The position numbers were made by a program, and so were the translations under genes. The notes beneath the pieces are model-generated. The model searched no databases. It was not told the origin of the DNA and worked only from the letters and a program-made list of their open reading frames with translations. 64,000 bases of DNA from Malacoraja senta. Its lineage: Eukaryota. Where the stretch lies: contig CM075993.1 in NCBI GenBank assembly GCA_038087875.1, positions 7,938,001 to 8,002,000 on the forward strand. The letters run 5' to 3'. Positions 12 through 64,000 of the stretch are shown here, one piece after another; the first letter of the stretch is position 1, and each line of letters begins with the position of its first letter.

Positions 12-3000
12 AATTACAAGGTTAATTCCCGGGATGGCGGGACTGTCATATGCTGAGAGAATGGAGCAGCTGGGCTTGTACACTATGGAGTTTAGAAGGA
101 TGAGAGGGTATCTCATTGAAACATATAAGATTGTTAATCATGGGGGACTTCAATTTTCATATTAATTGGGCAAACCAAACTGGGCAGGGTAGACTAGAGG
201 AAGAGTTTATAGAATGTATTAGAGACGGGTTCCTAGAACAGTATGTCACAGAACCGACAAGGGGGGAGGCAATCTTGGATCTGGTCCTGTGTAATGAAGC
301 AGGATTAATTAAAAATGTCATAGTTAGGGACTCGTTGGGAACAAGTGACCACAATATGGTCGAATTCCATATTCAAATAGAAGGGGAGCAGGTTGAAACT
401 CAGGCTAGGGTACTTAGTCTAAATAAGGGGGATTATGAAGGTATGAGGACTGAGCTGATCAAAGTTGACTGGGATAGCAGACTCAAGAATAAGACGGTAC
501 ATGAGCAGTGGTGTACGTTTAAGGATCTACTGTATAACCTTCAAGAAAAATGTATTCCTATGAAGAAAAAAAGGGGTAAGGGAAAGAACAGTCAGCCATG
601 GCTCAGTAAAACTATAAAGGATAGTATTCGGCTGAAGGCAAGGGCATATAAGGTAGCTAGAGATAGTGGGAGGGTAGAGGATTGGGAAGCATTTAAAGGT
701 CAGCAAAAAATAACTAAGAGATTAATTAAGACGGGGAAAATAGACTATGAAAGGAATTTAGCGAACAACATAAAAACTAATAGTAAGAGTTTTTATAGCT
801 ATATAAAAAGAAAAAGGGTGGCTAAGGTGAACGTTGGTCCATTGGAGGGTGAGACTGGAGAGTTGTTGGTGGGGAACATGGAAATGGCAAAGGCATTAAA
901 CGAGTATTTTGTATCAGTCTTCACCATAGAAGACACAAAAAATATTCCAACGCTGGATAAACAGGGGGCGGTAGGAATGGAGGAGCTAAATACTATTAAG
1001 ATCACCAAGGAGGTGGTATTAGGGAAATTAATGAGACTGAAGGAGGATAAATATCCTGGGCCTGATGGATTACATCCAAGGGTCTTGAGGGAGATAGCGG
1101 TGGGGATTGTGGATGCATTGGTGATAATTTTCCAAAACTCCCTGGAGGCAGGAACGGTCCCAGTGGATTGGAAAATGGCCAATGTAACACCTATATTTAA
1201 AAAAGGAAGTAAACAGAAGGCGGGTAACTATAGACCGGTTAGTCTAACATCGGTGGTGGGTAAAATGTTAGAGACAATTATTAAAGAAACACTAACGGGG
1301 CACTTGGATAAACATGACTTCATCGGACAGAACCAGCATGGTTTTGTGAAGGGGAAGTCCTGTTTAACGAATCTGCTCGAATTCTTTGAGGAAGTAACAA
1401 CCCGGGTGGATAAAGGGGAACCGGTGGATGTGGTATACTTGGACTTCCAAAAGGCTTTTGACAAGGTGCCACATAAGAGACTATTGCTAAAAATAAAAAA
1501 TTATGGGATTGGGGGTAATATATTAGCATGGGTAGAGGATTGGCTAACAAATAGGAAGCAGAGAGTGGGGATAAATGGTTCATACTCGGGATGGCAACCG
1601 GTAACTAGCGGGGTTCCGCAAGGGTCGGTGCTGGGACCCCAGTTGTTCACAATTTATATAAATGATTTGGAGGAGGGAACCAAGTGTAATATATCAAAAT
1701 TTGCGGACGATACAAAAATGGGAGGAAAAGTAGGGGATGAGGAGGATAGGAAGAGTCTGCAAAAGGATATAGATAAGCTAGGTGAGTGGGCAACAACTTG
1801 GCAGATGAAATTTAATACTAATAAATGTGAAGTCATTCACTTTGGGAAAAAAAATGATAGGGCAAGTTATTTTCTAAATGAGGTGGAGCTGCGTTGTAAT
1901 GCAACGCAAAGGGATCTAGGGGTAGTAGTACATGAATCACTACAAGTTAGTATGCAGGTGCAGCAAGCAATCAGGAAGGCCAATGGAGTTGTGGCCTTTA
2001 TTGCTAGGGGGATTGAGTATAAAAACACGGAGGTCTTGCTGCAGCTGTACACAGTATTAGTGAGACCACATTTGGAATACTGTGTACAGTTCTGGGGTCC
2101 ATACTTAAGAAAGGATGTACTGGCCCTGGAGGCAGTGCAGCGAAGGTTTACAAGATTAATTCCTGCAATGAGGGGATTGACATATGAGGAAAGGTTAAGT
2201 AGGCTGGAACTCTACTCTTTGGAGTTTAGAAGAATGAGAGGCGATCTCATTGAAACATATAAGATCGTGAGGGGCCTTGATCGGGTGGATGCACCGAGGA
2301 TGTTCCCAATGATCGGGGAAACTAGAACTAGGGGACATAGTTGTAGAATAAGAGGGGGCTCTTTTAAAACTGAGATGAGGAAGAACTTCTTCACCCAGAG
2401 GGTGGTTAATTTATGGAATTCACTGCCCCAGGGAGCAGTGGAAGCAGAAACATTAAATATATTTAAGTCTAAAATAGATGGTTTTTTAGCTGCCAAGGGG
2501 ATAAGGGGCTACGGGGAGAGGGCAGGGATATGGACCTAGGTATGGTTAGTATAGTAAGACCTGAGTGATCTCCTGGACAAGTGTCGATCGCCTGGATTGG
2601 GGTCGGAGAGGAATTTCCCGGATTTTTTTCCCGAATTGGACCTGGGTTTTTATCCGTTTTTTGCCTCCCCCAGGAGATCACGCGGTTCTTGGGGTGGAGA
2701 GGGGTGATAGCGATATAAAGGGGAGGGTAGTGTCTTGTGTTCTGTGTCTTGTGTCTACTGTTTGTGGGTAAGGGTGTCTGTTTAGTGTTCAGCCATGAGC
2801 GAATGGCGGTGCGGGCTCGATGGGCCTGGTGGTCTACTCTCGCACCTACTTTCTATGTTTCTATGTTTCTATGTTAAGGGTTTGGACACGCTAGAGGCAG
2901 GAAACATATTCCCGATGTTGGGGGAGTCCAGAACCAGGGGCCACAGTTTAAGAATAAGGAGTAAGCCATTTAGAACGGAGACGAGAAAACACTTTTTCTC

Positions 3001-25159: not shown

Positions 25160-25290
25160 GGGGTGGGAGATTGCAACCTTGACGTGGTCCACCCTGTCTC
25201 GACTAATGCAATCAACCCGACGTGCAGAAAGAAACAGATCAAATAGAACAAGTTGACCTGCAACGTTCGGCATACGCAAGAAGAAGAAGA
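25160..25290 (+). mobile_element. HDV-ribozyme-headed short retroposon, copy A (ribozyme 25160-25213, with an L3 C>G variant)
   Basis: TSD ACAACTCTCCA (25149-25159 / 25290-25300); (AAG)n tail; P1, P2 and P3 pairings intact. Confidence 0.85.
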
Positions 25291-28980: not shown

Positions 28981-29118
28981 TTCTTCTTCTTGCGTATGGC
29001 GTGCACAGCCTAAAGTTGTAAGACAACTTGTTCTGTTTGATCTTCTGTTTGTGCACGCCAGGTTGATTGCATTCGTTGAAACAGGGTGGACCACGTGAAG
29101 GTTGCAATCTCCCACCCC
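28981..29118 (-). mobile_element. HDV-ribozyme-headed short retroposon, copy B
   Basis: TSD GACACAATGCT/GACCCAATGCT (28971-28981 / 29119-29129); (AAG)n tail. Confidence 0.87.
29065..29118 (-). ncRNA. HDV-like (CPEB3-type) self-cleaving ribozyme, intact, sense to MAN2C1
   Basis: GGGGUGG-GA-GAUUGCA-ACC-UUCACGU-GGU-CCACCCU-GU-UUCAA-CGAA-UGCAAUC: P1 with G1-U wobble, P2, P3, L3, P1.1 and catalytic C in CGAA. Confidence 0.85.
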
Positions 29119-31300
29119 GACCCAATGCTGAGTTGGTACGATTACCCTAATAGGTTTGAGAGAACGAGAATCCAAAGGTCCCGTTTGCTTTCTGAGGAAG
29201 TCTAGTGGTAAGAGTCACGTGGACGTCAGTGAAAACGGTGAACCGCGACCAGTTTGTGATATATCACTTGAATATATTTCAAGATGTAGGAAGGAACTGT
29301 AGACGCTGGTTTGAAGAAGGGTCTCGACCCAAAACGTCACCCATTCCTTCTCTCCAGAGATGCTGCCTGTCCCGCTGAGTTACTCCAGCTTTTTGTGTCT
29401 ATCTTCGAACATATTTCAATACAGCAACAAGCTCAGCTACAAGGTATAGAATCAATGAGGAGGAATGTTCATGTGGGCAGAGGCAAGAGAAGGCTCCAGC
29501 ATGGACAATACTCCAGCATGGGGACCACCATAAACAATGAAGCGTTGCAGAACTCCATGCCCTAATCCTCACTGCCAGCTGTATTGGCAGCTTGGTTTAC
29601 AGTCATAGTCACACAACTAAGAAATGGACTCTTCGGCCCATCATATCTATGCTGACCTTTTTGTCCATCGACACGAATCCCATTTGGCCCAGGAAAGCTG
29701 CAGCAAGTTCATAAATTCTAGGGTCAGAATTAGGCCATTCGGCCCATCAAGTCTCTACTATGCCATTCAATCATGGTTGATCTATCTTTCCCTCTCAACC
29801 CCAAGTATATCCAACAAATCTAATTTCTCCAGAGCCGAACAACTGGATCACCTGCTGACTGCCAAAAACTCTGCCCGTCTTAGACTAAAGCAGTAAATGA
29901 CTTCTCCACATACGACATCTAACAAGGGGCCGTTGTCGGCAGCAGAATGAACCAAGTGCATGAGACAGTTTTCAATTTAACAAATACATGGACAGTACTG
30001 GAGGGACCAGGAATGAAAAGGATGATCATGAGCGAGAAGAAAATAGCAGTCAATTTAAAAAGGGAACCCAAAAGCCTAATTCAGGTGTGGATATGTTATG
30101 TGGGGAGCAAGACGGCAGGTGGGGCTAACTGTGGATAAAGGTGGTCTTCAATCACAAAGGCAAAGTATCAGCGGACATTGGGACCTGATGCACGGAGGTA
30201 GCAGGCACATAAACAGTCTGGTGAAGGGTCCCGACCCAAAACATCACCAATCCATGTTCCCCCAGAGATGCTGCCTGGCCCGCTGAGTTACTCCAGCACT
30301 TAGTGTCTATCCAGAGCACATAGACAGTTAATTAGTAAGGCAAATGGGATCTCAATGCTCATAAATAGAAGCACAGACTCCAAATATAGAGACGTTATTT
30401 GGAACTTGTAAAGGACACTATTAAGGACACAAGTGCAATGTGACATCCAACGCTGGAATCTCACTTTAGGAATGAATGCAGAAAAGATTTATTATGGGTT
30501 GAAGATCAAAAGTGGTTAGATTGACGAGGTTGATTTCCATCGTAACCAGATAAGAGTGAATAGGATAGTGCTGCCATTGGTTGGTGCAAAGGACAAAGGA
30601 GGATGAGAGGAATTTTTTGTTTTTGTTTTATGCTAAAAGATAAGAGTATCAATGAACGCTATCAAAAGGCAGCAAAAGACCAAGTAGGTCGGGACCCTTC
30701 TTCAGATACACTTCTTTCAGTCCCGATCTGAAACATCAACCCTCCATTCTCTCCACAGATGCTGCCTGACCCGCTGAGTTCCTCCAGCACTTTGTGTTTT
30801 CCCTCAGATTCCAGTATCTACAGTTTCTTGTGTCTCTGTCAAAAGGGACCTGGATAGAGATCTGAGATGGAGCATCATTTGCAGGACTGTCGCGAAGAGC
30901 AGGGGGTCCGGAACTGAAGATTTAATGGGCTGAATAGCCTCCTGTGCTATGACTACACTGAAACTTTACAGATAAATTGCATTTAGTGGAAGTTGTGAGG
31001 AATTCTAATTTTGATAGAGCAAACGTGATTTATTATTCAAAGACAAGTAACAGGTGGTAGCAATTGGCGGCTCGAGAGGCTAACAGGGGCTAAGAATTAG
31101 GCCACGCACTGCAAGGGAGCAGTGGACCAGACAGAAAGAGCGGACGGAATTACCACTAGACAGCCAAACCAGTAGGTAATTTACGGCTGGGGTAAGTACT
31201 TTCCCATTTATAGGAGGTAGGATTATATAAATAAGGGGTGTTTTAATACAGTAATCCGGGTAGGGGATTCTTAATAGGACCAGTTAATTACTTATATAAG

Positions 31301-32254
31301 ATGGGCGGCCAGGAGATGTGCCAATACTGTGAGATGTGGGAAATTGTCGACACCATTGATGTAGATGATCCCTACAGCTGCAGTAAGTGTTTGAGGCTAG
31401 CGGAACTCGAGCTCCGCATTGATGAGCTGGAGACCCAACTTCATACGCTGCGGTGCATCAGGGAGGGGGAGTATTACCTGGATGTTTTGTGCCAGGGGAT
31501 GGTCACACCGACCAGTTTAACTAATTCAGTAGTTAGTGAGCAGGGAAAGGAAGGTGTGGCCATAAGCGAGGCAGGTAGGGGGAACCAGGAGGAGATGCGG
31601 CAGGAGCCACAGCCCTTGTCCCTGACGAGCATGACCGAGGCTCTTACTCAATGTGAGGACGGGATCAGGGGCTGTGGGAGGGATGAGCAACCTGGCTGCA
31701 GCACCGTGGATCAGGGGGCCATTCAAGAGGGGGGAGTTAGAAGAAATGCCGTTGTGATAGGGGATAGTATTATTCGGGGGGTAGATAAGGTTCTCTGCAG
31801 CCAGCAGAACATGTCCCGAAGGCTGTGTTGCCTACCCGGTGCTAGGGTTAAGGATATCTCTGCGATGCTGGAGAGAAATTTGCAGAGTGAGGGGGAGGAT
31901 CCAGTGGTCGTGGTCCATGTGGGGACCAATGACATAGGAAGGACGAGGAAGGAGGATCTGCTGAACGAGTTTGAGCAGTTAGGGAATAAATTAAAAAGCA
32001 GAACCTCGAGGGTACTGATCTCCGGATTGCTACCTGAGCCACGGGCCAAATCGGCGAGGGTACGAAAAATTAAAAAGCTGAATGCGTGGCTCAAAGACTG
32101 GTGTGGGAAAAATGGGTTTGGTTTCTTGGGCCACTGGCACCAGTACTGGGACAGGGGGGATCTGTTCTGTAAGGACGGACTTCACCTGAACGGTGCTGGG
32201 ACTGGGGTCCTGGCAAATCATATAACTAGGGCAGTAGAGAGGTCTTTAAACTAA
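31301..32254 (+). CDS. CR1 ORF1p: N-terminal CxxC..CxxC zinc finger, leucine-zipper-like segment and SGNH/GDSL esterase domain
   Basis: CQYC...CSKC; LAELELRIDELETQLHTL; esterase blocks VIGDSII, PGA, HVGTND and DGLHLN, an architecture known for CR1 ORF1. Confidence 0.92.
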   Translation: MGGQEMCQYCEMWEIVDTIDVDDPYSCSKCLRLAELELRIDELETQLHTLRCIREGEYYLDVLCQGMVTPTSLTNSVVSEQGKEGVAISEAGRGNQEEMRQEPQPLSLTSMTEALTQCEDGIRGCGRDEQPGCSTVDQGAIQEGGVRRNAVVIGDSIIRGVDKVLCSQQNMSRRLCCLPGARVKDISAMLERNLQSEGEDPVVVVHVGTNDIGRTRKEDLLNEFEQLGNKLKSRTSRVLISGLLPEPRAKSARVRKIKKLNAWLKDWCGKNGFGFLGHWHQYWDRGDLFCKDGLHLNGAGTGVLANHITRAVERSLN

Positions 32255-32343
32255 GTAGCGGGGGGGAGGTATCAAGGGGGGTAATAACGGCAGGGGTAGA
32301 GGAAATAGAGCAGGGTATCAGTGGGGAAACGGAAAATCAAAAT

Positions 32344-35238
32344 GTGACAGGAGGATCCAGAATGTGTGAAGATAAAGCTCTAGATGTAAAAGGGGCAAAA
32401 ACAGAAAGGAAGGGTAGTAAAAATCATCTGAAAGTGCTGTATCTAAATGCACGGAGTATTCGAAATAAGATAAATGAATTAACGGTGCAATTAAGTACAT
32501 ATAGTTATGATATCGTGGCCATTACGGAGACATGGCTGCAAGGGGATCAGGATTGGGAGTTAAATATAGAGGGGTACTCGACAATTAGAAAAGATAGACA
32601 GGAAAGAAAGGGAGGAGGGGTGGCCCTTTTAATAAGGGAGGGAATAACGGCAATAGAGAGGAAGGATATTGCGTTGAAGGATCAGGATAGTGAAACAGCT
32701 TGGGTACAGATAGAGAATAACAAGGGGAAAAAAACACTAGTGGGTGTAATTTATAGACCTCCAAATAGCTGTGACGCTGTTAGTCAGAACATAAATTTGC
32801 AAATAGTTGACGCATGTAAAAAGGGAACTGCTGTAATCATGGGGGACTTCAATTTTCATATTAATTGGGCAAACCAAACTGGGCAGGGTAGACTAGAGGA
32901 AGAGTTTATAGAATGTATTAGAGACGGGTTCCTAGAACAGTATGTCACAGAACCGACAAGGGGGGAGGCAATCTTGGATCTGGTCCTGTGTAATGAAGCA
33001 GGATTAATTAAAAATGTCATAGTTAGGGACTCGTTGGGAACAAGTGACCACAATATGGTCGAATTCCATATTCAAATAGAAGGGGAGCAGGTTGAAACTC
33101 AGGCTAGGGTACTTAGTCTAAATAAGGGGGATTATGAAGGTATGAGGACTGAGCTGATCAAAGTTGACTGGGATAGCAGACTCAAGAATAAGACGGTACA
33201 TGAGCAGTGGTGTACGTTTAAGGATCTACTGTATAACCTTCAAGAAAAATGTATTCCTATGAAGAAAAAAAGGGGTAAGGGAAAGAACAGTCAGCCATGG
33301 CTCAGTAAAACTATAAAGGATAGTATTCGGCTGAAGGCAAGGGCATATAAGGTAGCTAGAGATAGTGGGAGGGTAGAGGATTGGGAAGCATTTAAAGGTC
33401 AGCAAAAAATAACTAAGAGATTAATTAAGACGGGGAAAATAGACTATGAAAGGAATTTAGCGAACAACATAAAAACTAATAGTAAGAGTTTTTATAGCTA
33501 TATAAAAAGAAAAAGGGTGGCTAAGGTGAACGTTGGTCCATTGGAGGGTGAGACTGGAGAGTTGTTGGTGGGGAACATGGAAATGGCAAAGGCATTAAAC
33601 GAGTATTTTGTATCAGTCTTCACCATAGAAGACACAAAAAATATTCCAACGCTGGATAAACAGGGGGCGGTAGGAATGGAGGAGCTAAATACTATTAAGA
33701 TCACCAAGGAGGTGGTATTAGGGAAATTAATGAGACTGAAGGAGGATAAATCCCCTGGGCCTGATGGATTACATCCAAGGGTCTTGAGGGAGATAGCGGT
33801 GGGGATTGTGGATGCATTGGTGATAATTTTCCAAAACTCCCTGGAGGCAGGAACGGTCCCAGTGGATTGGAAAATGGCCAATGTAACACCTATATTTAAA
33901 AAAGGAAGTAAACAGAAGGCGGGTAACTATAGACCGGTTAGTCTAACATCGGTGGTGGGTAAAATGTTAGAGACAATTATTAAAGAAACACTAACGGGGC
34001 ACTTGGATAAACATGACTTCATCGGACAGAACCAGCATGGTTTTGTGAAGGGGAAGTCCTGTTTAACGAATCTGCTCGAATTCTTTGAGGAAGTAACAAC
34101 CCGGGTGGATAAAGGGGAACCGGTGGATGTGGTATACTTGGACTTCCAAAAGGCTTTTGACAAGGTGCCACATAAGAGACTATTGCTAAAAATAAAAAAT
34201 TATGGGATTGGGGGTAATATATTAGCATGGGTAGAGGATTGGCTAACAAATAGGAAGCAGAGAGTGGGGATAAATGGTTCATACTCGGGATGGCAACCGG
34301 TAACTAGCGGGGTTCCGCAAGGGTCGGTGCTGGGACCCCAGTTGTTCACAATTTATATAAATGATTTGGAGGAGGGAACCAAGTGTAATATATCAAAATT
34401 TGCGGACGATACAAAAATGGGAGGAAAAGTAGGGGATGAGGAGGATAGGAAGAGTCTGCAAAAGGATATAGATAAGCTAGGTGAGTGGGCAACAACTTGG
34501 CAGATGAAATTTAATACTAATAAATGTGAAGTCATTCACTTTGGGAAAAAAAATGATAGGGCAAGTTATTTTCTAAATGAGGTGGAGCTGCGTTGTAATG
34601 CAACGCAAAGGGATCTAGGGGTAGTAGTACATGAATCACTAAAAGTTAGTATGCAGGTGCAGCAAGCAATCAGGAAGGCCAATGGAGTTTTGGCCTTTAT
34701 TGCTAGGGGGATTGAGTATAAAAACACGGAGGTCTTGCTGCAGCTGTACACAGTATTAGTGAGACCACATTTGGAATACTGTGTACAGTTCTGGGGTCCA
34801 TACTTAAGAAAGGATGTACTGGCCCTGGAGGCAGTGCAGCGAAGGTTTACAAGATTAATTCCTGCAATGAGGGGATTGACATATGAGGAAAGGTTAAGTA
34901 GGCTGGAACTCTACTCTTTGGAGTTTAGAAGAATGAGAGGCGATCTCATTGAAACATATAAGATCGTGAGGGGCCTTGATCGGGTGGATGCACCGAGGAT
35001 GTTCCCAATGATCGGGGAAACTAGAACTAGGGGACATAGTTGTAGAATAAGAGGGGGCTCTTTTAAAACTGAGATGAGGAAGAACTTCTTCACCCAGAGG
35101 GTGGTTAATTTATGGAATTCACTGCCCCAGGGAGCAGTGGAAGCAGAAACATTAAATATATTTAAGTCTAAAATAGATGTTTTTTTAGCTGCCAAGGGGA
35201 TAAGGGGCTACGGGGAGAGGGCAGGGATATGGACCTAG
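32344..35238 (+). CDS. CR1 ORF2p: APE endonuclease plus reverse transcriptase (first ATG about 32362)
   Basis: YLNARS, ITETW, GDFN and SDH (APE); SPGPDG, YRPVSL, DFQKAFDKV, GVPQGSVLGP and FADD (RT); uninterrupted 964 aa. Confidence 0.97.
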   Translation: MTGGSRMCEDKALDVKGAKTERKGSKNHLKVLYLNARSIRNKINELTVQLSTYSYDIVAITETWLQGDQDWELNIEGYSTIRKDRQERKGGGVALLIREGITAIERKDIALKDQDSETAWVQIENNKGKKTLVGVIYRPPNSCDAVSQNINLQIVDACKKGTAVIMGDFNFHINWANQTGQGRLEEEFIECIRDGFLEQYVTEPTRGEAILDLVLCNEAGLIKNVIVRDSLGTSDHNMVEFHIQIEGEQVETQARVLSLNKGDYEGMRTELIKVDWDSRLKNKTVHEQWCTFKDLLYNLQEKCIPMKKKRGKGKNSQPWLSKTIKDSIRLKARAYKVARDSGRVEDWEAFKGQQKITKRLIKTGKIDYERNLANNIKTNSKSFYSYIKRKRVAKVNVGPLEGETGELLVGNMEMAKALNEYFVSVFTIEDTKNIPTLDKQGAVGMEELNTIKITKEVVLGKLMRLKEDKSPGPDGLHPRVLREIAVGIVDALVIIFQNSLEAGTVPVDWKMANVTPIFKKGSKQKAGNYRPVSLTSVVGKMLETIIKETLTGHLDKHDFIGQNQHGFVKGKSCLTNLLEFFEEVTTRVDKGEPVDVVYLDFQKAFDKVPHKRLLLKIKNYGIGGNILAWVEDWLTNRKQRVGINGSYSGWQPVTSGVPQGSVLGPQLFTIYINDLEEGTKCNISKFADDTKMGGKVGDEEDRKSLQKDIDKLGEWATTWQMKFNTNKCEVIHFGKKNDRASYFLNEVELRCNATQRDLGVVVHESLKVSMQVQQAIRKANGVLAFIARGIEYKNTEVLLQLYTVLVRPHLEYCVQFWGPYLRKDVLALEAVQRRFTRLIPAMRGLTYEERLSRLELYSLEFRRMRGDLIETYKIVRGLDRVDAPRMFPMIGETRTRGHSCRIRGGSFKTEMRKNFFTQRVVNLWNSLPQGAVEAETLNIFKSKIDVFLAAKGIRGYGERAGIWT

Positions 35239-44087: not shown

Positions 44088-45367
44088 CTGCAGAGTAACA
44101 AAACAAACACGGTAGACTTTAGAGATACAGCGCGGAAACAGCCCCTACAGCCCACCGAGGCCGCACCCAACCAGTGGTCACCCTGTAAACCAACACTATC
44201 CTACACACTAGGTACAATGTACACTTTTTTTTTAACCAAAGTTGGTTAACCTACAAACCTTATGTCTTTGGAGTGTGGGAGGAAACCAGAGCACCTGGCG
44301 AAACTCCACGCAGTCACAGGGAGAACGCAAATGTTCTGTACAGACAGCACCCATAGTCAGGATCGAATCTGGGTCTCCGGCGCTGTGAGGCAACAACTCT
44401 ACCGCTGCGCCACTGTGCCACACCTAATAGGTTTAACAACTACCCCAGCAAATCCAGGTAACTATTACAATTGCAGTAACTGGATACCTGGAATCTGGCA
44501 GCTAGTTGCAATTGAAGACCCATTTTGGCCATATTTCATCTCATAACTAACATTGGGAGAAGGGTACAGGAACAAAGAAGCATGGGTTCAAGGTTCAAGA
44601 ACAACGTCTTGGCATCAACCATCAAGCTCTCGAACACTGCACAACCCTACCCCAGCAACCCCAGGTGTCAGGGGTTATGGGGAGAAGGCAGGAGAATGGG
44701 GTTAAGAGGGAAAGACAGATCAGCCATGATTGAACGGTGGAGTAGACTTGATGGGCCGAATAGCCTAATTCTGCTCCTATTACTTATGAGCAAAGATCTA
44801 CACAGACCTTGTTTAGTTTGCACTATGTACTCCCGCACCCTTATGGTTTAGTTTAATTTAGAGATACAACATGGAAACAGGCCCTTTGTCCCAACGAGTC
44901 AACGCCGACCATCGATCACCTTGTGTTATCCTACTTCTCATCCACTCCCTACGCACTCAAGGCAATTTGGAGGCCAATTCACGTACAAACCTGCACGTCT
45001 TTGGCATGTGGGAGGTGCTGTCTGTACGGAGTTTGTACGTTCCCCCCGTGACCTGCATGAGCTTTCTCCGGGTGCTCCAGTTTCCCCCCACACTCCAAAG
45101 TGAACAAATTTACGCCTGCTACTGCATTAAAAGATGCCGACCAATATTAACGTGGATTAAAAAGAACCTATAGAAACAGAGGGTGAAACTGTGGGGGAAG
45201 ACAGAATTATGTTTTTACAAAACAAACGAGTGAAAAGCAACAGCTCTGTGGAGGAAACATAACTGCTGCACGTCCTAAAGTTATCATGTTACTCATTTCA
45301 ACCTTTTCCTAAAGGGGTACTAATACCAAATCTCAAGAGAATCCTAAACCATATAAAGGTTTTCTGC

Positions 45368-45421
45368 GGGGTGGAAGATTGCAACCTTCACGTGGTCCGC
45401 CCTGTTTCGACGAATGCAATC
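45368..45421 (+). ncRNA. HDV-like (CPEB3-type) self-cleaving ribozyme, intact
   Basis: GGGGUGG-AA-GAUUGCA-ACC-UUCACGU-GGU-CCGCCCU-GU-UUCGA-CGAA-UGCAAUC; the P1 variant keeps pairing as U-G. Confidence 0.85.
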
Positions 45422-45514
45422 AACCTGGCGTGCACAATCAAATAAGATCAAATAGAACAAGTTGTCCTACAACTTTAGGCTGTGCACGCCATACGCAAGA
45501 AGAAGAAGAAGAAG
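45368..45514 (+). mobile_element. HDV-ribozyme-headed short retroposon, copy C
   Basis: TSD GTTTTCTGC(GG) (from 45359 and from 45514); (AAG)n tail. Confidence 0.87.
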
Positions 45515-45542
45515 TTTTCTGCGGTTGGGTAAGGTTGCTGAC

Positions 45543-45613
45543 CTGTGAGGTTCTTCATCTGTTAGATTCTCTGAGAGAATGTAGCTCATCTTCTCCCCTT
45601 CTTTCGTAAGGCC
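45543..45613 (-). CDS. MAN2C1: MAN2C1 exon: GLTKEGEKMSYILSENLTDEEPH(S)
   Basis: cag|...|gtcagc, 71 nt, in phase with both neighbours. Confidence 0.93.
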
Positions 45614-46702
45614 CTGAGGATAAATTATTTGTTGAAAAAAAAATAAGATAATGCAAGAAACACTGACTCCCCTTCAATTAACATTTCGGCTTTGGTACAG
45701 ATTAAACTAATATAATTTCTTGTGTGATTTTCAGCATTAGGGTTGGCCTGGCTCGCCTCAACGGAGCTGCAGGTCTAAAAGACATACGACAGAAGAAGAA
45801 GAAGCATTAGGGTTGAACAGTGTTCAGCATTAGGGGTGAACAGTGCTTTGATTACTCACCATCTACTTAATGCTATCTAATACTAATACAATCCCCTACC
45901 CGAGTCACCCTGCTAGTTTTACTGTTCATATCCTCTCGTTATCACCTCCTCCACAGCCAAGAGAGAGGGAGTTAAATTTAGCTCTAAGGGCTAAAAGAAT
46001 CAAGGGATATGGGGGGAAAAGCAGGAACGGGGTACTGATTTTAGATGACCAGCCATGATAATATTGAATGGGGATGCTGGCTCAAAGGGCCGAAAGGCCC
46101 ACGTCTGCACCTATTTTTCTACGTTTCTATGTTTCAGTACTGTTGTCATCCTCCTATAATTCTATGGATACTCGTCCTTTTAACTGCAGTGCTGTGAATT
46201 ACTATCCTCTCAGACAGCTCCCGATTTCCCTAAAAGGACACAGAGTGCAGGAGTAACTCAGTGGATAAGGCAGCACCTCTGGAGAAAAGGAATAGGTGAA
46301 TTTCGGGTCGGAGGGGAACAAAGATGAGGCCTCTGTTGAGGACAGACCGTTCTGTATCGGAAAGGAGGTTAGGGGGGTATGGTGGAGACACAACGGTGGG
46401 GGTGTGTGTTGGGGTGAAAGAGGGGCAGGGGAGTGGATGGAGGAGAGGTCCTGCATCCTTCTTCAAACCTCTATATTAAATGCCTGGTGTTTGTCTGTGG
46501 GGTCATAGTCAAGGGGTTGTTATGAGGAGCTGGTGCCTGGACTCAGCATGCAGGTGCAAGGTCCCGAGGGTAGCAGGCCGACATGTGTGGTCCACGAGGA
46601 GGGTGAATGTTGGAGACAGGAGGATTCCCGTTCTGGGCAGAGATATTGGAGTTTCTGCATGAAGGATTGTGCTACAAAAACAGCTGTGTAAATCTATCGT
46701 AC

Positions 46703-52469: not shown

Positions 52470-54956
52470 TTTTATTCAAGTCACTGATCATGTGGTGCAA
52501 CTGATTCTAAAATCTGTCTTGACTTTGATTTGTACTCCCTGATATTTTACAATATTTGGGTACCAGATATTCTTACGCAAACGGAGATGATCTTTGATCT
52601 CCATCCAGATGAAAAAGCGATGAGTTTTATTTTGAAGTCTTGAAATGGCAGCAGTACAAGAAATAATAACCTGCCTCTGGAGTAATGAGGATAGCAGTTT
52701 ATGCTTCCAATCTAAATACATTATCATTTTTATTACTTATTTGAAATTATTCAATGGGGTCAAGGAAAGATCGTTCACGTCGCGGCCCTGTTTCCACCAA
52801 TCTTTCCACCACCACGCATAAGAAGCGACAAGACAGACACCATTGTATGCAGATGCCGAGAAGTGTGTTCAGCTCTGGCTGAACCACTTCTAATCTTGTG
52901 TGTGCGCTCGATAAGAAGACGTAGTTATTCAATGATGAAGGAAATAATACACTTCACACAAGACAGCCAGATTTCAGCCCTGGCGATATTTTAATGGGAA
53001 ATACTGAACTACAAGTCAAGTGTACAACTTCTGTATAGAAATCACACGTGGGTGGCTAAAGATCACAGCACAGAATACAAAAAGCAATATATATGCATTG
53101 TACAAGCTGGCTTAAAAGCCCTGCCTCTTATACTTTACAAAGTGAAAATAGAGAGGTTGCTGGGGCAAACTGTACAAATCAATCTCTGACATTGTCGGAT
53201 CACAATGTTGTGGAGCACAGTGGCTATCTGAACAGTTGCAACAATCTCAATGGACAATTGGAGGTTTAAGACAACAGCCGGGTGAGTGGTTGAGCAGAAA
53301 ATAGTTTTAGGATTTTTCTTTTCAGCTGCCGTTAGCCAAATCTTGCCTTGATTAGATTGGCTGTTCTAATACTTGCCAAACCACTACTCGGTTTGTCCTA
53401 GGGAAGCAAAAGCCACTGACCCACGTCAGTAGACGGAGAGGGGAGGGCAGAGAAAATAATTTACCTGATTTACAAAGAAATCTGTAAGATGGCAGAACTT
53501 CTTGAGTGGAGCGTTTTCACCCAATTACCAGTCTGCTGTTGTCAACAAAAAGATCATTCATTTCCAGGAGTAATTGGGGGAAGAGAGAATAGTAACAAGT
53601 CCAAAATATGTTCGAATAGATGCGCATAGAGAAAAAACAAAACAAGAAGTGTGGCTGCTGACCAGACTCATCAAAAAGAAAACCTCAAAACTTAAAAAAA
53701 CCTGTTCCAACAAGTAAAAATAATCTTAAAAGCAGATGAAGGCAGAAGGGGCTAGGGGAGGAAAAGGGTATTATTAAATGTATAAAACTGATTTCCAGAG
53801 GCATCATAATTAACAGTCATGTGTTTCAGACATTAGAGCACTTTCAATATACGACAGACATCAGTGAATGTTCTAGCCAACAAAACTTAAGGCTCATAGA
53901 AAGTCTTTCAAAATTCAGCTAAGCTTTTTTTGTGTGACATGTGTTTTTTTTAAAAACACCTGATGTGTTTCACTGTCTTCTAATGGTACCAATTGTGTTG
54001 GTAAGAGGCTTCGAATGCTAGTCAAAATGCTTCAACAAAGAAATGTTCAAAATAAAATGCCCAAACCATGAAAAATCTCTTTTTTCCTGTAACTTGTAAA
54101 AAAAAAAGCAGCACGAAAAGTTAAGGACTGTGTCAATCGCAACTGAATTAGTAACCGCTGATGGATGTCTGGAAATAAAATTGGATGCTGCAGTGTGAAG
54201 GGATTGTGACTGGTCAGTTGACATATTAGTCCGTCAGTCAACCACTTGCTCATTAATGTCTTGTAATACCTGAAGCTACAATTCCACAGGGTCGAATACT
54301 GTATAAAACTGGAACCAGCAGTCTATCAGACTTCCAAAAGGAAGCAAATTGTGTTTGGAAGACTAAGGCAGGTTGTTTTTTTTTAAAAAAAGGTCTTGGG
54401 TAAGTTACCCTCAGAGACCCAGAGTTCAATGTTTCCATAAAGAAAGAAAAGGTGATCGGACAGTTTAAATAACGTCTGCCGTGAAGTTTGGTCCAGTTGT
54501 TATAGACGAGCAAACTTGAATTAAAACTTAAAACAAAAAGGGCAAAATACACTATGTAATGGCATGCTGCACATGGACACTTAATGATGCAAGTGTTCTG
54601 TACATAAAGAAATATCTTTTCACTAACAGAAATTCACATGTAAAGAAAGCTACAATTACTCTGAAATCCCTTTGGTAAAAACTTTAATAATGGTGCCTCA
54701 TTTTTCCATATCAACTAACTTCAAGCCACCTCATACTATGATACACAATAAGCTAGTAAGTGATGCTAGCACATTGATGCAGATTGTTTCTCCTTTAAAA
54801 AAAAAAAAAAGTCTGTTGACAATATGTACAGAGTATTTACAAAAAGATAGCAGTGTTTAATTTTGTTGTTGTTGTTGTCGGAGCTGGTGAATGGCATTGG
54901 ACGAGATGCCAGACGCGGGCACACTGAACGACAGGAGGACATGGTGTGTGGGTAGG
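52470..54956 (-). other. SIN3A: Probable SIN3A 3'UTR (AU-rich, no recognisable TEs)
   Basis: Follows the stop codon and is the longest repeat-free stretch in the window. Candidate AATAAA on the minus strand at 52729-52734, 52626-52631 and 52471-52476. The true 3' end is unknown. Confidence 0.65.
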
Positions 54957-63279: not shown

Positions 63280-64000
63280 AGGAAGAGGGGAGTTTCCCAA
63301 ATTGCTAATCATAAAAGCGGAATCAGCAAACTTAATATCATATTTGTACAATATTATCTTAAATGCACAAATACCATCTACGGAGGGTATCAGAAGAGAC
63401 TGGGAACAAAAGTTAGCTATTAAAATTTCAAAGGAAAGTTGGAATGAATACTTATTAAAAGTGCATAAATGCTCGATTAATGTAAGACACACTTTAATAC
63501 AATTTAAAATTTTACATAGATTATATTATTCAAAAACTAAAATTCATAAAATTTTCCCAAACGTATCATCTATTTGTGATAAATGTCAATCCCAAGAAGC
63601 AACTATAGCGCACTCATTTGTCTTCTGTACAAAAATTCAAAAATTTTGGAATGAAATTTTTGAAATCTTTACAAAGTTATTTAAAACAAGACTGATACCC
63701 AAAGCAGAATGGATTATCTTCGGAATAACGGAAGATGATCCAGAACTAAATGTGTTTCAAAAGAAATTAATGGATTATGGGTTAATAACTGGAAAAAAGC
63801 TAATTCTAAAATTTTGGAAGAAGGCTCCAATACCAACTATAAATATGTGGATTTCAAATATGTTTGAAACATTACACCTTGAAGAGATAAGACTCCTCCT
63901 AGCAGGTAAACCAGATCACTTCCACCTGACGTGGTCTGCATTTATAGAATTATTACAAACATAGGGTGCAAAAGTACTTTAAAAAAAATAAAAAATTGAG
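63280..64000 (+). mobile_element. 5'-truncated L1 3' fragment (ORF2 C-terminal Cys-rich domain, 63302-63964), antisense in a SIN3A intron
   Basis: QFKILHRLYY...CDKC...HSFVFC.KIQKFW, the CCHC-type L1 ORF2 end. Confidence 0.88.

What the first reader, a model, noticed from the sequence alone, without database searches (positions are those of the whole stretch)
45368..45514. A SINE-like retroposon family headed by a minimal CPEB3/HDV-like self-cleaving ribozyme
Seen in sequence: three dispersed copies of about 140 bp (25160-25290+, 28981-29118-, 45368-45514+), each flanked by a 9-11-bp TSD and ending in (AAG)n. All three start at the same nucleotide. The first 54 nt fit the HDV double-pseudoknot fold: P1 GGGGUGG/CCACCCU with a G1-U wobble, P2 GAUUGCA/UGCAAUC, P3 ACC/GGU, L3 UUCACGU, a GU junction giving a 1-bp P1.1, a vestigial P4 (UUCGA), and J4/2 CGAA or CUAA holding the catalytic C. 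The 3' half forms a long stem (TGGCGTGCACA/TGTGCACGCCA) enclosing an AAGTTGT/ACAACTT hairpin. No Pol III A or B boxes are visible. Established: L3 UUCACGU, the CU-GU junction and CGAA match the mammalian CPEB3 ribozyme core as I recall it, and HDV-like ribozymes define the 5' ends of R2 and some RTE elements. Inference: this is a promoterless non-autonomous element that cuts itself out of read-through transcripts at G1 and is mobilised by an RTE-type LINE. I do not know of it being described in chondrichthyans.
Basis: partly seen in the sequence, partly recalled or inferred. Interest (0 to 1): 0.92.

Follow-up and report, generated by a model that had tools for sequence, protein, structure and literature searches.

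The report
Ribozyme-headed SINE-like retroposon of an RTE-type LINE
A short retroposon present in thousands of copies begins with a miniature HDV/CPEB3-like self-cleaving ribozyme fold and ends with the tail of an RTE-like LINE, so it probably cuts its own 5' end out of host transcripts and borrows the LINE's machinery to spread.

Summary
The window has three copies (25160-25289+, 29118-28981-, 45368-45514+), each with TSDs and an (AAG)n tail. Their 29-nt core occurs 7,654 times in the 1.94-Gb genome.

The first 54 nt fit an HDV-type double pseudoknot without P4, starting at the first base of the element. Rfam alone is weak: best 20.6 bits against a cut-off of 50. Copies within the family show no covariation.

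Relatives give the decisive support. The last ~40 nt of the SINE equal the final codons, the ~20-nt 3' UTR and the (AAG)n of a LINE. That LINE's full-length relatives are ~1,000-aa EN+RT ORFs on ~3.3-kb contigs, which is RTE-like architecture. Such relatives in metagenome contigs carry P4-bearing HDV-like ribozymes just upstream of the ORF, and two of them score best with Rfam's CPEB3 model.

I built a covariance model from those seven ribozymes only. In the window its top three hits are the three SINE heads (E 1.5e-6 to 6e-5). Its fourth hit is a second ribozyme-headed SINE-like family at 52756-52924. Across this set, 13 of 17 pairs covary.

Not shown: cleavage, read-through transcription, and the 5' end of the partner LINE in this genome. 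The host taxon is unconfirmed. I rate it a new variant of a known kind.

The parts
45368..45514 (+). SINE-like copy 3 (family 1, 'B-type': G8A, CCGCCC, CGAA). TSD TTTTCTGC at 45360-45367 and 45515-45522.
   Evidence: Empty site: a contig of run X7 joins 45358 to 45514, skipping 155 nt, with 8 letters that fit both sides.
45368..45421 (+). 54-nt P4-less HDV/CPEB3-like ribozyme fold. P1 is 45368-74 with 45397-403, P2 is 45377-83 with 45415-21, and P3 is 45384-86 with 45394-96. L3 is 45387-93. The putative catalytic C is at 45411. The predicted cleavage site is 5' of G45368.
   Evidence: Descriptor. Rfam RF00094 20.6 bits and RF02682 14.4 bits, both below their cut-offs. Model R1 built from RTE ribozymes: 34.4 bits, E 1.7e-6.
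45422..45514 (+). 3' domain: a long stem (TGGCGTGCACA / TGTGCACGCCA) enclosing the hairpin AAGTTGT/ACAACTT, then ATACGC(AAG)6. From about 45462 onward it is identical to the 3' end of the partner LINE: the codons CAA CTT TAG, a short 3' UTR and (AAG)n.
   Evidence: Fold z = -4.31, 0 of 200 shuffles as good. Alignment to the LINE ends in L012, L023 and L047.
25160..25289 (+). SINE-like copy 1 ('A-type', CTAA; it has a 10-nt deletion in the 3' stem and L3 C>G). TSD ACAACTCTCCA.
   Evidence: R1 28.3 bits, E 6.2e-5 at 25160-25214.
28981..29118 (-). SINE-like copy 2 ('C-type', TTTCAAC, CGAA). TSD GCATTG(G/T)GTC. The ribozyme is 29118-29065.
   Evidence: RF02682 15.9 bits. R1 34.7 bits, E 1.5e-6.
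52756..52924 (+). Copy of a second ribozyme-headed SINE-like family. The ribozyme is 52756-52807: P1 GGGGTC/GGCCCT, P2 GGAAAGA/TCTTTCC, P3 TCG/CGC (GCG in most genomic copies), L3 TTCACGT, GT, TTCCA, CCAA. TSD TTATTCAAT at 52747-55 and 52925-33.
   Evidence: R1 24.4 bits, E 5.9e-4. Sequence. 1,040 + 1,097 genomic hits at <=3 mismatches, control 0.
45746..45804 (+). 59-nt 5'-truncated copy of another (AAG)n-tailed RTE-like LINE (ORF end ...SMELQV*, then AAGACATACGACAG(AAG)4). TSD CATTAGGGTTG. It shows that LINEs with (AAG)n tails have been inserting in this genome.
   Evidence: 588 + 546 genomic hits at <=3 mismatches. ORF end read in L095.

Best explanation
Family 1 is a non-autonomous retroposon of about 140 nt built from two borrowed ends.

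Its first 54 nt are a P4-less member of the HDV/CPEB3-like ribozymes that head RTE-type LINEs. Its last ~40 nt are the last codons, the ~20-nt 3' UTR and the (AAG)n tail of an RTE-like LINE in the same genome. Between them lies a SINE-specific segment that pairs with the LINE-derived tail to form a stem-loop.

Inferred life cycle: a copy lying in any transcribed region is co-transcribed. The ribozyme cleaves 5' of G1 and so sets the RNA's 5' end. The LINE's reverse transcriptase recognises the shared 3' end and primes on (AAG)n at a nicked target. Reverse transcription to the cleaved end gives full-length copies that start at G1 and are flanked by 8-14-nt TSDs.

Shown here: the element's anatomy, copy number, uniform 5' end and empty site; the 3' end shared with a LINE; and the kinship of the fold with RTE ribozymes, with covariation.

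Inferred only: catalysis by the P4-less form, co-transcription, and which LINE protein does the work.
For: Uniform 5' end:
- Of 30 copies sampled by their tail alone, 28 reach the head.
- In 23 of those 30 the TSD ends at G1 (11 copies) or one base into it (12 copies).
- In 4 runs the contigs' loose 5' ends pile up at 45368 (232, 544, 266 and 68 contigs) with random flanks, agreement about 0.35.

Fold:
- The strict descriptor hit 0 loci in 60 simulated windows.
- Rfam's HDV models align end to end from G1, with P4 deleted and no non-canonical pair flagged.

Kinship:
- Model R1, built from 7 RTE-relative 5' ribozymes and no SINE, ranks the 3 SINE heads first in the window, at 34.7, 34.4 and 28.3 bits.
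- R1 also hits the SINE heads in the loci taken from this genome.

Covariation across the 13 distinct sequences of A6:
- 13 of 17 pairs change on both sides.
- 91.4% of cells pair, against 65.7 +/- 2.4 in shuffles (0 of 500 reach it) and 37-48% when the partners are slid.
- P1 was not part of the model's structure, yet it has 4 of 7 compensated pairs and 94.4% pairing.

Common variants inside the ribozyme keep pairing or lie in unpaired positions:
- G8A lies in J1/2.
- C31U turns G-C into G.U.
- G32A turns U.G into U-A.
- G42A lies in the linker.
- G45A/U is the second base of J4/2.

Partner LINE:
- LINE copies in L012, L023 and L047 end ...STLD(L/P)QL* with CAACTTTAG GCTGTGCACGCC(ATACGC)(AAG)n, which is the SINE tail.
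- Relative P0003 is 83% identical and reads through into the same tail.
- Full-length relatives are 958-1,037-aa Exo_endo_phos + RVT_1 ORFs on 3.2-3.4-kb contigs.

Other points:
- The RTE-relative ribozymes lie 27-90 nt upstream of the first ORF residue matched.
- No A or B box was found, and Rfam gave no tRNA, 5S or 7SL hit at E <= 10.
Against: - No Rfam family reaches its gathering score on the SINE: 0 matches in the window at that threshold. The best scores are 20.6 against a cut-off of 50 and 15.9 against 44. The CPEB3 model gives no hit on the SINE at E <= 10.
- Within the family there is no compensatory change: 0 of 18 pairs, and the shuffles do equally well.
- The nested MFE of the 54-mer is ordinary (z = +0.3). 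That calculation ignores pseudoknots.
- P4 is missing. I have only a search listing and abstracts as support for the activity of minimal natural HDV-like ribozymes.
- No RNA ends could be examined. All runs are assembled contigs, and contigs break at repeat borders in any case.
- The 5' end of the partner LINE in this genome was not seen. The one 261-nt piece I could still fetch held no ribozyme.
- Of about 19 metagenome loci that reach the ORF's N-terminus, several have no ribozyme hit: L101, L103, L107, L115, L118, L120 and L138.
- R1's E-values are rough because calibration was shortened. A6 is also fitted to P2 and P3, which favours those helices.
Confidence: 0.78

Rival explanations
1. 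Relic head. The 54 nt descend from an RTE ribozyme but no longer cleave after losing P4. The 5' end at G1 is then set by transcription initiation, either from an internal promoter within the head (as Pr77 of L1Tc is both promoter and ribozyme) or by Pol III.
For: P4 is absent, and the scores fall below Rfam's cut-offs. A uniform 5' end is equally expected from a fixed start site. The dual promoter/ribozyme precedent comes from the abstract of PMC3383444 in the listing.
Against: No A or B box. One subfamily carries a T5 run in its body, which would terminate Pol III (L010, L011 and L030). Two independent families (7,654 and 2,137 core hits) both kept every helix, the catalytic C and the L3 sequence while differing in P1 and P2. 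Loss of function would not predict that.
Confidence: 0.15
2. A chance fold at the start of an ordinary SINE.
For: A loose descriptor finds about 3.4 chance loci per 64 kb, and it found 4 non-SINE loci in the real window.
Against: The strict descriptor hit 0 of 60 simulated windows. The fold begins exactly at nt 1. An independent model built from RTE ribozymes finds it at E about 1e-6. L3, the junction and J4/2 match Rfam's CPEB3 consensus.
Confidence: 0.02
3. The CR1-type LINEs that appear to sit between a SINE head and a SINE tail (L061, L062) are the autonomous partners and share both ends with the SINE.
For: Both 3.4-kb units start with the head, end with the tail and are flanked by TSDs (CTAGTTGGCC and ATCAGAAAAG). 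L062 has an intact 1,035-aa EN+RT ORF.
Against: Each head/LINE junction occurs only once in the genome: 1 hit, and 1 exact hit among 234. Each LINE keeps its own 3' microsatellite tail just before the SINE sequence resumes, and the SINE is simply split. The two LINE bodies are barely alike. Ordinary copies of these LINEs have GDSL-esterase ORF1s, a repeat 5' UTR with no head, and (TTTCTATG)n-type tails. The simplest reading is that LINEs have nested into older SINE copies.
Confidence: 0.03

Closest known systems
HDV-like ribozymes at the 5' ends of RTE and other non-LTR retrotransposons. The primary papers (Ruminski et al. 2011; Webb et al. 2009) were not held; I saw them only as cited in passages of the review PMC6765202.
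   Same: A ribozyme at nt 1 of a promoterless element, thought to free it from co-transcripts. I found ribozymes of this kind upstream of RTE-like ORFs in metagenome contigs, and they are kin of the SINE head.
   Different: The element here is a ~140-nt non-coding derivative. The ribozyme has no P4 (54 nt, against 69-85 nt in the RTE relatives). The host is a vertebrate-type genome holding thousands of copies.
R2 SIDEs and R2/R1 hybrid SIDEs of Drosophila (PMC3414825; abstract and passages read).
   Same: Short internally deleted elements made of a LINE's 5' HDV-like ribozyme joined to a LINE's 3' recognition end. They are not Pol III SINEs and are mobilised in trans.
   Different: SIDEs are few in number and confined to rDNA target sites. 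This family is dispersed genome-wide with >= 7,654 core copies, and its ribozyme is far smaller.
NARTc, SIDER and TbRIME of trypanosomatids, which share the L1Tc Pr77 ribozyme (listings and abstracts; a passage).
   Same: High-copy non-autonomous elements that share the autonomous LINE's 5' HDV-like ribozyme.
   Different: Pr77 is also an internal promoter. The LINE clade (ingi/L1Tc) and the hosts (protists) are different.
Mammalian CPEB3 ribozyme (Rfam RF00622; NMR paper PMC4836649, passages read).
   Same: Core letters. The consensus printed reads GCGUUCACGUCGCGGCCCCUGU...CGAA. Family 2 reads GCGTTCACGTCGCGGCCCTGT...CCAA, the same stretch with one C fewer. Family 1 shares UUCACGU, CCCUGU and CGAA. 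U20, C22, A23, G25 and a 4-nt J4/2 that begins with the catalytic C fall at the same numbering as in CPEB3. P1.1 would be one C-G pair plus a U.U pair, as described for CPEB3.
   Different: CPEB3 is a single-copy intronic ribozyme with a P4 helix. The RF00622 model does not hit either SINE head at E <= 10, although it does hit two RTE relatives at 27.6 and 26.5 bits against a cut-off of 35. These heads are not orthologues of it.
Minimal HDV-like and theta ribozymes (abstract of bioRxiv 10.1101/2023.06.13.544163 in the listing; the Riccitelli 2014 work is recalled, not seen).
   Same: HDV fold with a reduced or absent P4.
   Different: Those occur in phages and microbiomes next to tRNAs. This one heads a eukaryotic retroposon.

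Membership tests
HDV-like self-cleaving ribozymes | Nested double pseudoknot: P1 (6-7 bp), P2 and P3, with P3'-P1' contiguous. | tested here: met
   The descriptor hits all 3 copies from nt 1. 13 of 17 pairs covary across the SINE heads and the RTE relatives.
HDV-like self-cleaving ribozymes | Cleavage site 5' of G1, with a G1.U wobble closing P1. | tested here: met
   G1.U36 is present in all 3 copies. Pair 1-38 is G.U in 8 of the 13 distinct sequences of A6. The cleavage itself was not tested.
HDV-like self-cleaving ribozymes | Catalytic C at the start of J4/2, followed by NAA, directly before P2'. | tested here: met
   C44 is followed by GAA, TAA or AAA in the subfamilies. C45411>T does not appear among variants at >= 10% in 4 runs.
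HDV-like self-cleaving ribozymes | P4 helix. | tested here: not met
   Only 5 nt (UUCGA) lie between J1/4 and J4/2. Rfam aligns the SINE with the 35 P4 positions replaced by 5 nt. From recall, P4 is held to be dispensable in minimal variants.
HDV-like self-cleaving ribozymes | Score at or above an Rfam gathering threshold (RF00094, RF02682, RF00622, RF01787/8). | tested here: not met
   0 matches in the window at gathering thresholds. Best scores: 20.6 against a cut-off of 50, and 15.9 against 44.
HDV-like self-cleaving ribozymes | Mg2+-dependent self-scission. | not testable with these tools
   This needs an in vitro transcription and cleavage assay.
Mammalian CPEB3 ribozyme (RF00622) | Match to the family model and an orthologous position in a CPEB3 intron. 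| tested here: not met
   No RF00622 hit on the SINE at E <= 10. The element is a dispersed repeat. Only the core letters are shared.
SINE in the strict sense (Pol III retroposon) | Internal Pol III promoter (A/B boxes, or a 5S- or 7SL-type head). | tested here: not met
   The best A-box and B-box matches have 3 mismatches in 11 positions. Rfam gives no tRNA, 5S or 7SL hit at E <= 10. The element is therefore better called SINE-like, or a SIDE.
LINE-dependent non-autonomous retroposon | 3' end shared with an autonomous LINE, TSDs, and dispersed copies. | tested here: met
   About 40-46 nt are shared with the LINE ends in L012, L023 and L047. TSDs of 8-14 nt. An empty site.
RTE clade (for the partner LINE) | Single ~1,000-aa ORF with APE + RT, an element of ~3.3 kb, and a very short 3' UTR ending in a short-unit repeat. 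| tested here: met
   Relatives are 958-1,037-aa ORFs with PF03372/PF14529 + PF00078 on contigs of 3.2-3.4 kb. The stop codon lies ~20 nt before (AAG)n. That these traits define RTE is my recollection.
RTE clade (for the partner LINE) | Placement of the RT domain within RTE in a phylogeny with reference LINEs. | not tested
   No reference LINE sequences were at hand, and no full-length copy from this genome could be fetched.

The most novel reading that the evidence does not exclude
The P4-less 53-54-nt heads of both families are active ribozymes, the smallest natural HDV-type ribozymes in a vertebrate-type genome. They belong to an RTE-borne lineage from which the mammalian CPEB3 ribozyme itself descends. 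On this reading CPEB3's intronic ribozyme is a domesticated 5' end of an RTE or SINE insertion, which would explain why RTE 5' ribozymes score best with the CPEB3 model and why family 2 shares a 21-nt core with it.
Probability: 0.3. Interest if true: 0.85.

Novelty: new variant of a known kind. Interest (0 to 1): 0.68.

Why it matters
Ribozyme-headed LINEs and a few low-copy derivatives are already known. According to the papers I could search, they come mainly from insects, rDNA elements and trypanosomes.

Here the same strategy has produced at least two high-copy, genome-wide SINE-like families in a large chordate-type genome. Their ribozyme is trimmed to 53-54 nt. That gives three things:
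- a natural test of how small an HDV-type ribozyme can be;
- thousands of potential RNA-cleavage sites scattered through introns and UTRs of host genes;
- a concrete, testable route to the unexplained origin of the mammalian CPEB3 ribozyme, whose core letters these elements and their RTE relatives share.

Tried and rejected
- A DNA search of the own genome with the whole element found nothing, because the tool skips very common words. I used pattern searches instead.
- I first read L061 and L062 as autonomous partners or template-switch chimeras. I rejected this because each junction occurs once and each LINE keeps its own tail, so they are nested insertions.
- The 5' ends of ordinary copies of those CR1-type LINEs hold no head.
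- The exclusion pattern HNVNHNBACCTTCACGTGGT, meant to find a second family with the same P3/L3, gave 15 hits against 11 in the control, so nothing. Family 2 escaped it because its P3 differs.
- Two exclusion patterns meant to find a LINE with the SINE tail gave only SINE indel variants (101 and 39 hits). Their design was flawed, because they also excluded the letters that the true partner shares.
- The look-up of sequencing runs gave only assembled contigs and no raw reads. RNA 5' ends therefore could not be examined, and X15 is probably DNA.
- The search of earlier findings by sequence returned nothing.
- The tandem pair of tails in L095 is a local duplication, not a full element.
- The piece L096 (261 nt), upstream of a near-full-length RTE copy, showed no ribozyme. 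That copy is probably 5'-truncated.
- R1 on 87 loci of the own genome found only SINE heads and no P4-bearing RTE 5' end.
- Ruminski 2011 and Webb 2009 are not held.
- Literature searches for an HDV-like ribozyme combined with CR1, shark, fish, RTE or SINE found no description of this family. Dfam and Repbase could not be searched.
Full report
THE OBSERVATION

Each is flanked by a target-site duplication:
- copy 1: ACAACTCTCCA, 11 nt;
- copy 2: GCATTG(G/T)GTC, 10 nt with one mismatch;
- copy 3: TTTTCTGC, 8 nt, or up to 10 if the adjoining G's are counted.

Each ends in (AAG)4-6.

HOW COMMON IT IS, AND WHERE IT STARTS

The window lies in a 1.94-Gb assembly.
- A 29-nt core of the head, at up to 2 mismatches, occurs 3,847 + 3,807 times; the reversed control occurs 0 times.
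- A 33-nt piece of the tail occurs 4,112 + 4,107 times; control 0.

I sampled 30 copies by their tail alone, which is unbiased with respect to the head. Of these, 28 reach the head. The other two (L033, L040) are 5'-truncated. In 23 of the 30 the upstream TSD ends at G1 (11 copies) or one base into it (12 copies). The remaining five with heads fall within -6 to +4, mostly where G-rich targets blur the border.

I laid contigs of four coded runs (organisms A, C, E and D) on copy 3.
- 15,855, 20,529, 20,041 and 1,270 contigs matched.
- The unmatched 5' parts of contigs pile up at 45368 (232, 544, 266 and 68 contigs) with random upstream letters.
- The 3' ends scatter over 45503-45511, as expected for a tail of varying length.
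- One contig of run X7 joins 45358 to 45514, skipping 155 nt, with 8 letters shared by both sides. This is an empty site, so copy 3 is a recent or polymorphic insertion.

THE FOLD TAKEN ALONE

The first 54 nt read as follows:

P1 GGGGUGG / J1/2 (G/A)A / P2 GAUUGCA / P3 ACC / L3 UUCACGU / P3' GGU / P1' CC(A/G)CCCU / GU / UUCGA / C(G/U/A)AA / P2' UGCAAUC.

My own descriptor finds all three copies from nt 1. I then ran it on 60 simulated 64-kb sequences (Markov order 1), with these results:
- the loose form gave 3.4 chance loci per window;
- with P2 >= 7 bp it gave 0.57 per window;
- with P2 >= 7 bp, at most 2 G.U pairs and G1.U it gave none.

Rfam is weak.
- Nothing in the window reaches a gathering score.
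- In permissive mode the HDV model gives 20.6 bits (cut-off 50, E 0.45).
- The F. prausnitzii HDV model gives 14.4 and 15.9 bits (cut-off 44).
- These alignments do run end to end from G1, with P4 deleted.
- There is no CPEB3, tRNA, 5S or 7SL hit at E <= 10.

The nested minimum-energy fold recovers P1 + P3 but is no better than shuffles (z = +0.3). The 3' domain, in contrast, is clearly structured (z = -4.3 and -4.7). No A or B box comes within 2 mismatches (the consensus is recalled).

Among 30 heads (28 distinct) there is no compensatory change at all. Individual copies carry pair-breaking mutations, as expected for neutral decay after insertion. By itself, then, the family can neither prove nor disprove the fold.

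The common variants (>= 10% of contigs, or >= 3 of 30 copies) are all harmless to the fold:
- G8A lies in J1/2;
- C31U and G32A exchange a Watson-Crick pair and a wobble pair;
- C41U and G42A lie in the linker;
- position 45 is the second base of J4/2.

A FALSE TRAIL

Two 3.4-kb units (L061, L062) begin with the head, end with the tail and are flanked by TSDs. One has an intact 1,035-aa EN+RT ORF. I first took them for the partner LINE. That reading fails for four reasons.
- Each head/LINE junction is unique in the genome.
- Each LINE keeps its own microsatellite tail immediately before the SINE sequence resumes.
- The two LINE bodies are different families.
- Ordinary copies of these LINEs extend about 1 kb further. 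They have a GDSL-esterase ORF1 and a repeat 5' UTR without the head. The window's own copies end in (TTTCTATG)n.

They are CR1-type LINEs nested inside older SINE copies.

THE REAL PARTNER

A fourth (AAG)n site in the window, at 45746-45804 with TSD CATTAGGGTTG, is a 59-nt truncated copy of a LINE. Its ORF ends ...SMELQV* only 14 nt before (AAG)n, and it has 1,134 genomic hits.

I used that C-terminus in a tblastn of everything held. It found related ORF ends in L012, L023 and L047 that read ...AVLAWMSTLD(L/P)QL*. There the codons CAA CTT TAG are the SINE's CAACTTTAG. They are followed by GCTGTGCACGCC(ATACGC)(AAG)n, which is the SINE's tail. About 40-46 nt are shared. The upstream coding sequence is not in the SINE.

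In public protein sets:
- The closest relatives are P0003 (83% identity; its read-through end ...AVHAIRKKK translates the same tail) and a record named from the teleost Synaphobranchus kaupii (82%).
- Longer relatives number 47. Most are 958-1,037-aa ORFs with Exo_endo_phos + RVT_1 on contigs of only 3.2-3.4 kb, and several are from insects.

A single ORF of that size, an element of ~3.3 kb and a ~20-nt 3' UTR ending in a trinucleotide repeat are, as I recall them, the hallmarks of RTE. No RT phylogeny was made. The genome holds very many such ORFs: 124,184 first-look candidates, of which 45 were scored.

RIBOZYMES OF THE RELATIVES

The one 261-nt piece I obtained showed nothing.

Instead I scanned metagenome contigs with an alignment of eight of the long ORFs. 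The scan found 162 stretches, 92 of them relatives, and 80 loci were kept.

Just upstream of the ORF, 27-90 nt before the first matched residue, I found HDV-type folds with a P4 helix:
- L124, 721-797
- L125, 853-932
- L108, 200-272
- L099, 303-371
- L097, 954-1021
- L100, 1387-1471
- L117, 1365-1435 (L121 is the same)

Rfam on these relatives:
- L099 scores 41.6 bits with the F. prausnitzii HDV model (cut-off 44).
- L097 scores 30.3 bits with the same model.
- L124 and L108 score best with the mammalian CPEB3 model, at 27.6 and 26.5 bits (cut-off 35; E 0.0032 and 0.0077 over 58 kb).

Several loci that reach the N-terminus show no such fold: L101, L103, L107, L115, L118, L120 and L138.

THE INDEPENDENT TEST

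I built a covariance model, R1, from those seven sequences only, with P2 and P3 as its pairs.

With filters off, its best hits in the window are:
- 29118-29064: 34.7 bits, E 1.5e-6
- 45368-45422: 34.4 bits, E 1.7e-6
- 25160-25214: 28.3 bits, E 6.2e-5
- 52755-52808: 24.4 bits, E 5.9e-4

The next hit scores 19.5 bits, and the rest are noise (E-values are rough).

Over the window plus 67 of the 80 metagenome loci, R1 also finds L141/L142 and L105, again just upstream of the ORF. I left out 13 loci whose table rows duplicated others.

On the resulting alignment of 14 sequences (13 distinct), with P1 added as a pseudoknot:
- 13 of 17 pairs change on both sides;
- 91.4% of cells pair, against 65.7 +/- 2.4 in shuffles (0 of 500 reach it) and 37-48% when the partners are slid;
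- the covariation score is 0.694, against 0.209 in shuffles and 0.08-0.13 when slid;
- P1, to which the alignment was not fitted, has 4 of 7 compensated pairs and 94.4% pairing.

One caveat applies: the alignment is fitted to P2 and P3, and the family-2 row is one column out of register in P1.

A SECOND FAMILY

The fourth hit is a 169-nt element at 52756-52924, with TSD TTATTCAAT on both sides. Its first 52 nt read:

GGGGUC / AA / GGAAAGA / (G)CG / UUCACGU / CGC / GGCCCU / GU / UUCCA / CCAA / UCUUUCC.

Its core occurs 2,137 times at up to 3 mismatches. Most copies have GCG, so P3 is intact in them. The window's copy has a G>T change there.

The two families thus share the unpaired core and the missing P4, but they differ in P1 and P2 in a compensated way.

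THE CPEB3 LIKENESS

Rfam's CPEB3 consensus, printed, reads ...GCGUUCACGUCGCGGCCCCUGUC[P4]GCGAAUUCUGCU.
- Family 2 has GCGUUCACGUCGCGGCCCUGU, the same 22 letters minus one C.
- Family 1 shares UUCACGU, CCCUGU and CGAA.
- The NMR paper on CPEB3 (passages) places U20, C22, A23, G25 and a 4-nt J4/2 beginning with the catalytic C at the same numbering. It describes P1.1 as one G-C pair plus one U-U pair. C22-G37 and U21.U38 would give exactly that here.

This is a likeness of the core only, not membership. The CPEB3 model does not hit the SINE heads, and CPEB3 is a single-copy intronic element with a P4 helix.

WHAT IT MOST LIKELY IS

It is a short, internally deleted derivative of an RTE-type LINE, or a hybrid of an RTE ribozyme with an RTE tail. 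It keeps only the self-cleaving 5' module and the 3' recognition end.

The closest described things are:
- the ribozyme-headed RTE and baggins elements (review passages);
- the R2 and R2/R1 SIDEs of Drosophila;
- NARTc and SIDER of trypanosomes.

The review already states that some non-autonomous SINEs use HDV-like ribozymes, so the principle is not new. Three things are new:
- the P4-less 53-54-nt form;
- the scale, with two families of thousands of dispersed copies;
- the chordate-type host, judged from the kin of its LINEs, and the closeness of the core to CPEB3.

I found no paper that describes this family. Dfam and Repbase could not be searched.

WHAT REMAINS OPEN
- Catalysis by the P4-less form.
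- Whether source copies depend on read-through transcription.
- The 5' end of the partner LINE in this genome.
- The partner's clade by phylogeny.
- The host taxon.

Noticed in passing
window 52756-52924 (+): A second SINE-like family with a 52-nt P4-less ribozyme head. It uses different P1/P2 letters, and its tail ends ...GATAAGAAGACGTAG. TSD TTATTCAAT. It has 2,137 genomic core hits. Its core is one C short of 22 letters of Rfam's CPEB3 consensus.
   Followed up: partly
window 45746-45804 (+); L095 1-121 and 3205-3412: 5'-truncated copies of another RTE-like LINE that ends ...SMELQV* AAGACATACGACAG(AAG)n, with 1,134 hits at <=3 mismatches. L056 (710-895) holds a third relative that ends ...LEI* ...CATTCGC(AAG)n.
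   Followed up: partly
L061 245-3640; L062 123-3524: CR1-type LINEs of two different families are nested inside SINE copies, one of them with an intact 1,035-aa ORF. At first sight they mimic an autonomous element that shares both ends with the SINE.
   Followed up: yes
window 31247-35238 (+) and 104-2539 (+): CR1-type LINEs. One looks full length, with a GDSL-esterase ORF1 (335 aa) and an EN+RT ORF2 (1,002 aa). Both end in (TTTCTATG)n after an identical ~330-nt 3' UTR.
   Followed up: partly
L012 about 1485-1905; L023 about 1484-1950: In two independent loci the G1 end of a SINE head abuts, in inverted orientation, a 5'-truncated 3' fragment of the partner LINE (starting near ...EWRR(A/T)WKDANTNNG). 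This could be chance nesting, a preferred target site or a twin-priming-like event. It is unexplained.
   Followed up: no
window 45422-45495: The SINE-specific middle segment is complementary to the LINE-derived tail (TGGCGTGCACA with TGTGCACGCCA, and AAGTTGT with ACAACTT). It looks as if the body arose as an inverted copy of the tail interrupted by an A-rich loop.
   Followed up: no
window 45358-45514 in run X7: An empty-site contig lacking copy 3, with otherwise near-identical flanks (one G>C at 45550). The insertion is therefore polymorphic or lineage-specific among the sampled organisms.
   Followed up: partly
P0004: The only named close relative of the partner LINE's C-terminus (82% identity) is a record from the deep-sea eel Synaphobranchus kaupii. 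This either hints at the host's affinity or at horizontal spread of this RTE lineage.
   Followed up: no
genome places listed: Internally deleted mini-variants of the SINE, for example a head fragment joined directly to CATACGC(AAG)n, appear among the 39 hits of an exclusion pattern.
   Followed up: no
window 63281-63964 (+): The C-terminal part of an L1-like ORF2 (weak zf-RVT hit, E 1.7e-4), followed by an A-rich tail at the edge of the window.
   Followed up: no
L010/L011 (=L052/L053), L030: A SINE subfamily in which CAAATAGAACAAG is replaced by a small hairpin, GTAGTTTTTCATGCTAC. Its T5 run would terminate Pol III.
   Followed up: no
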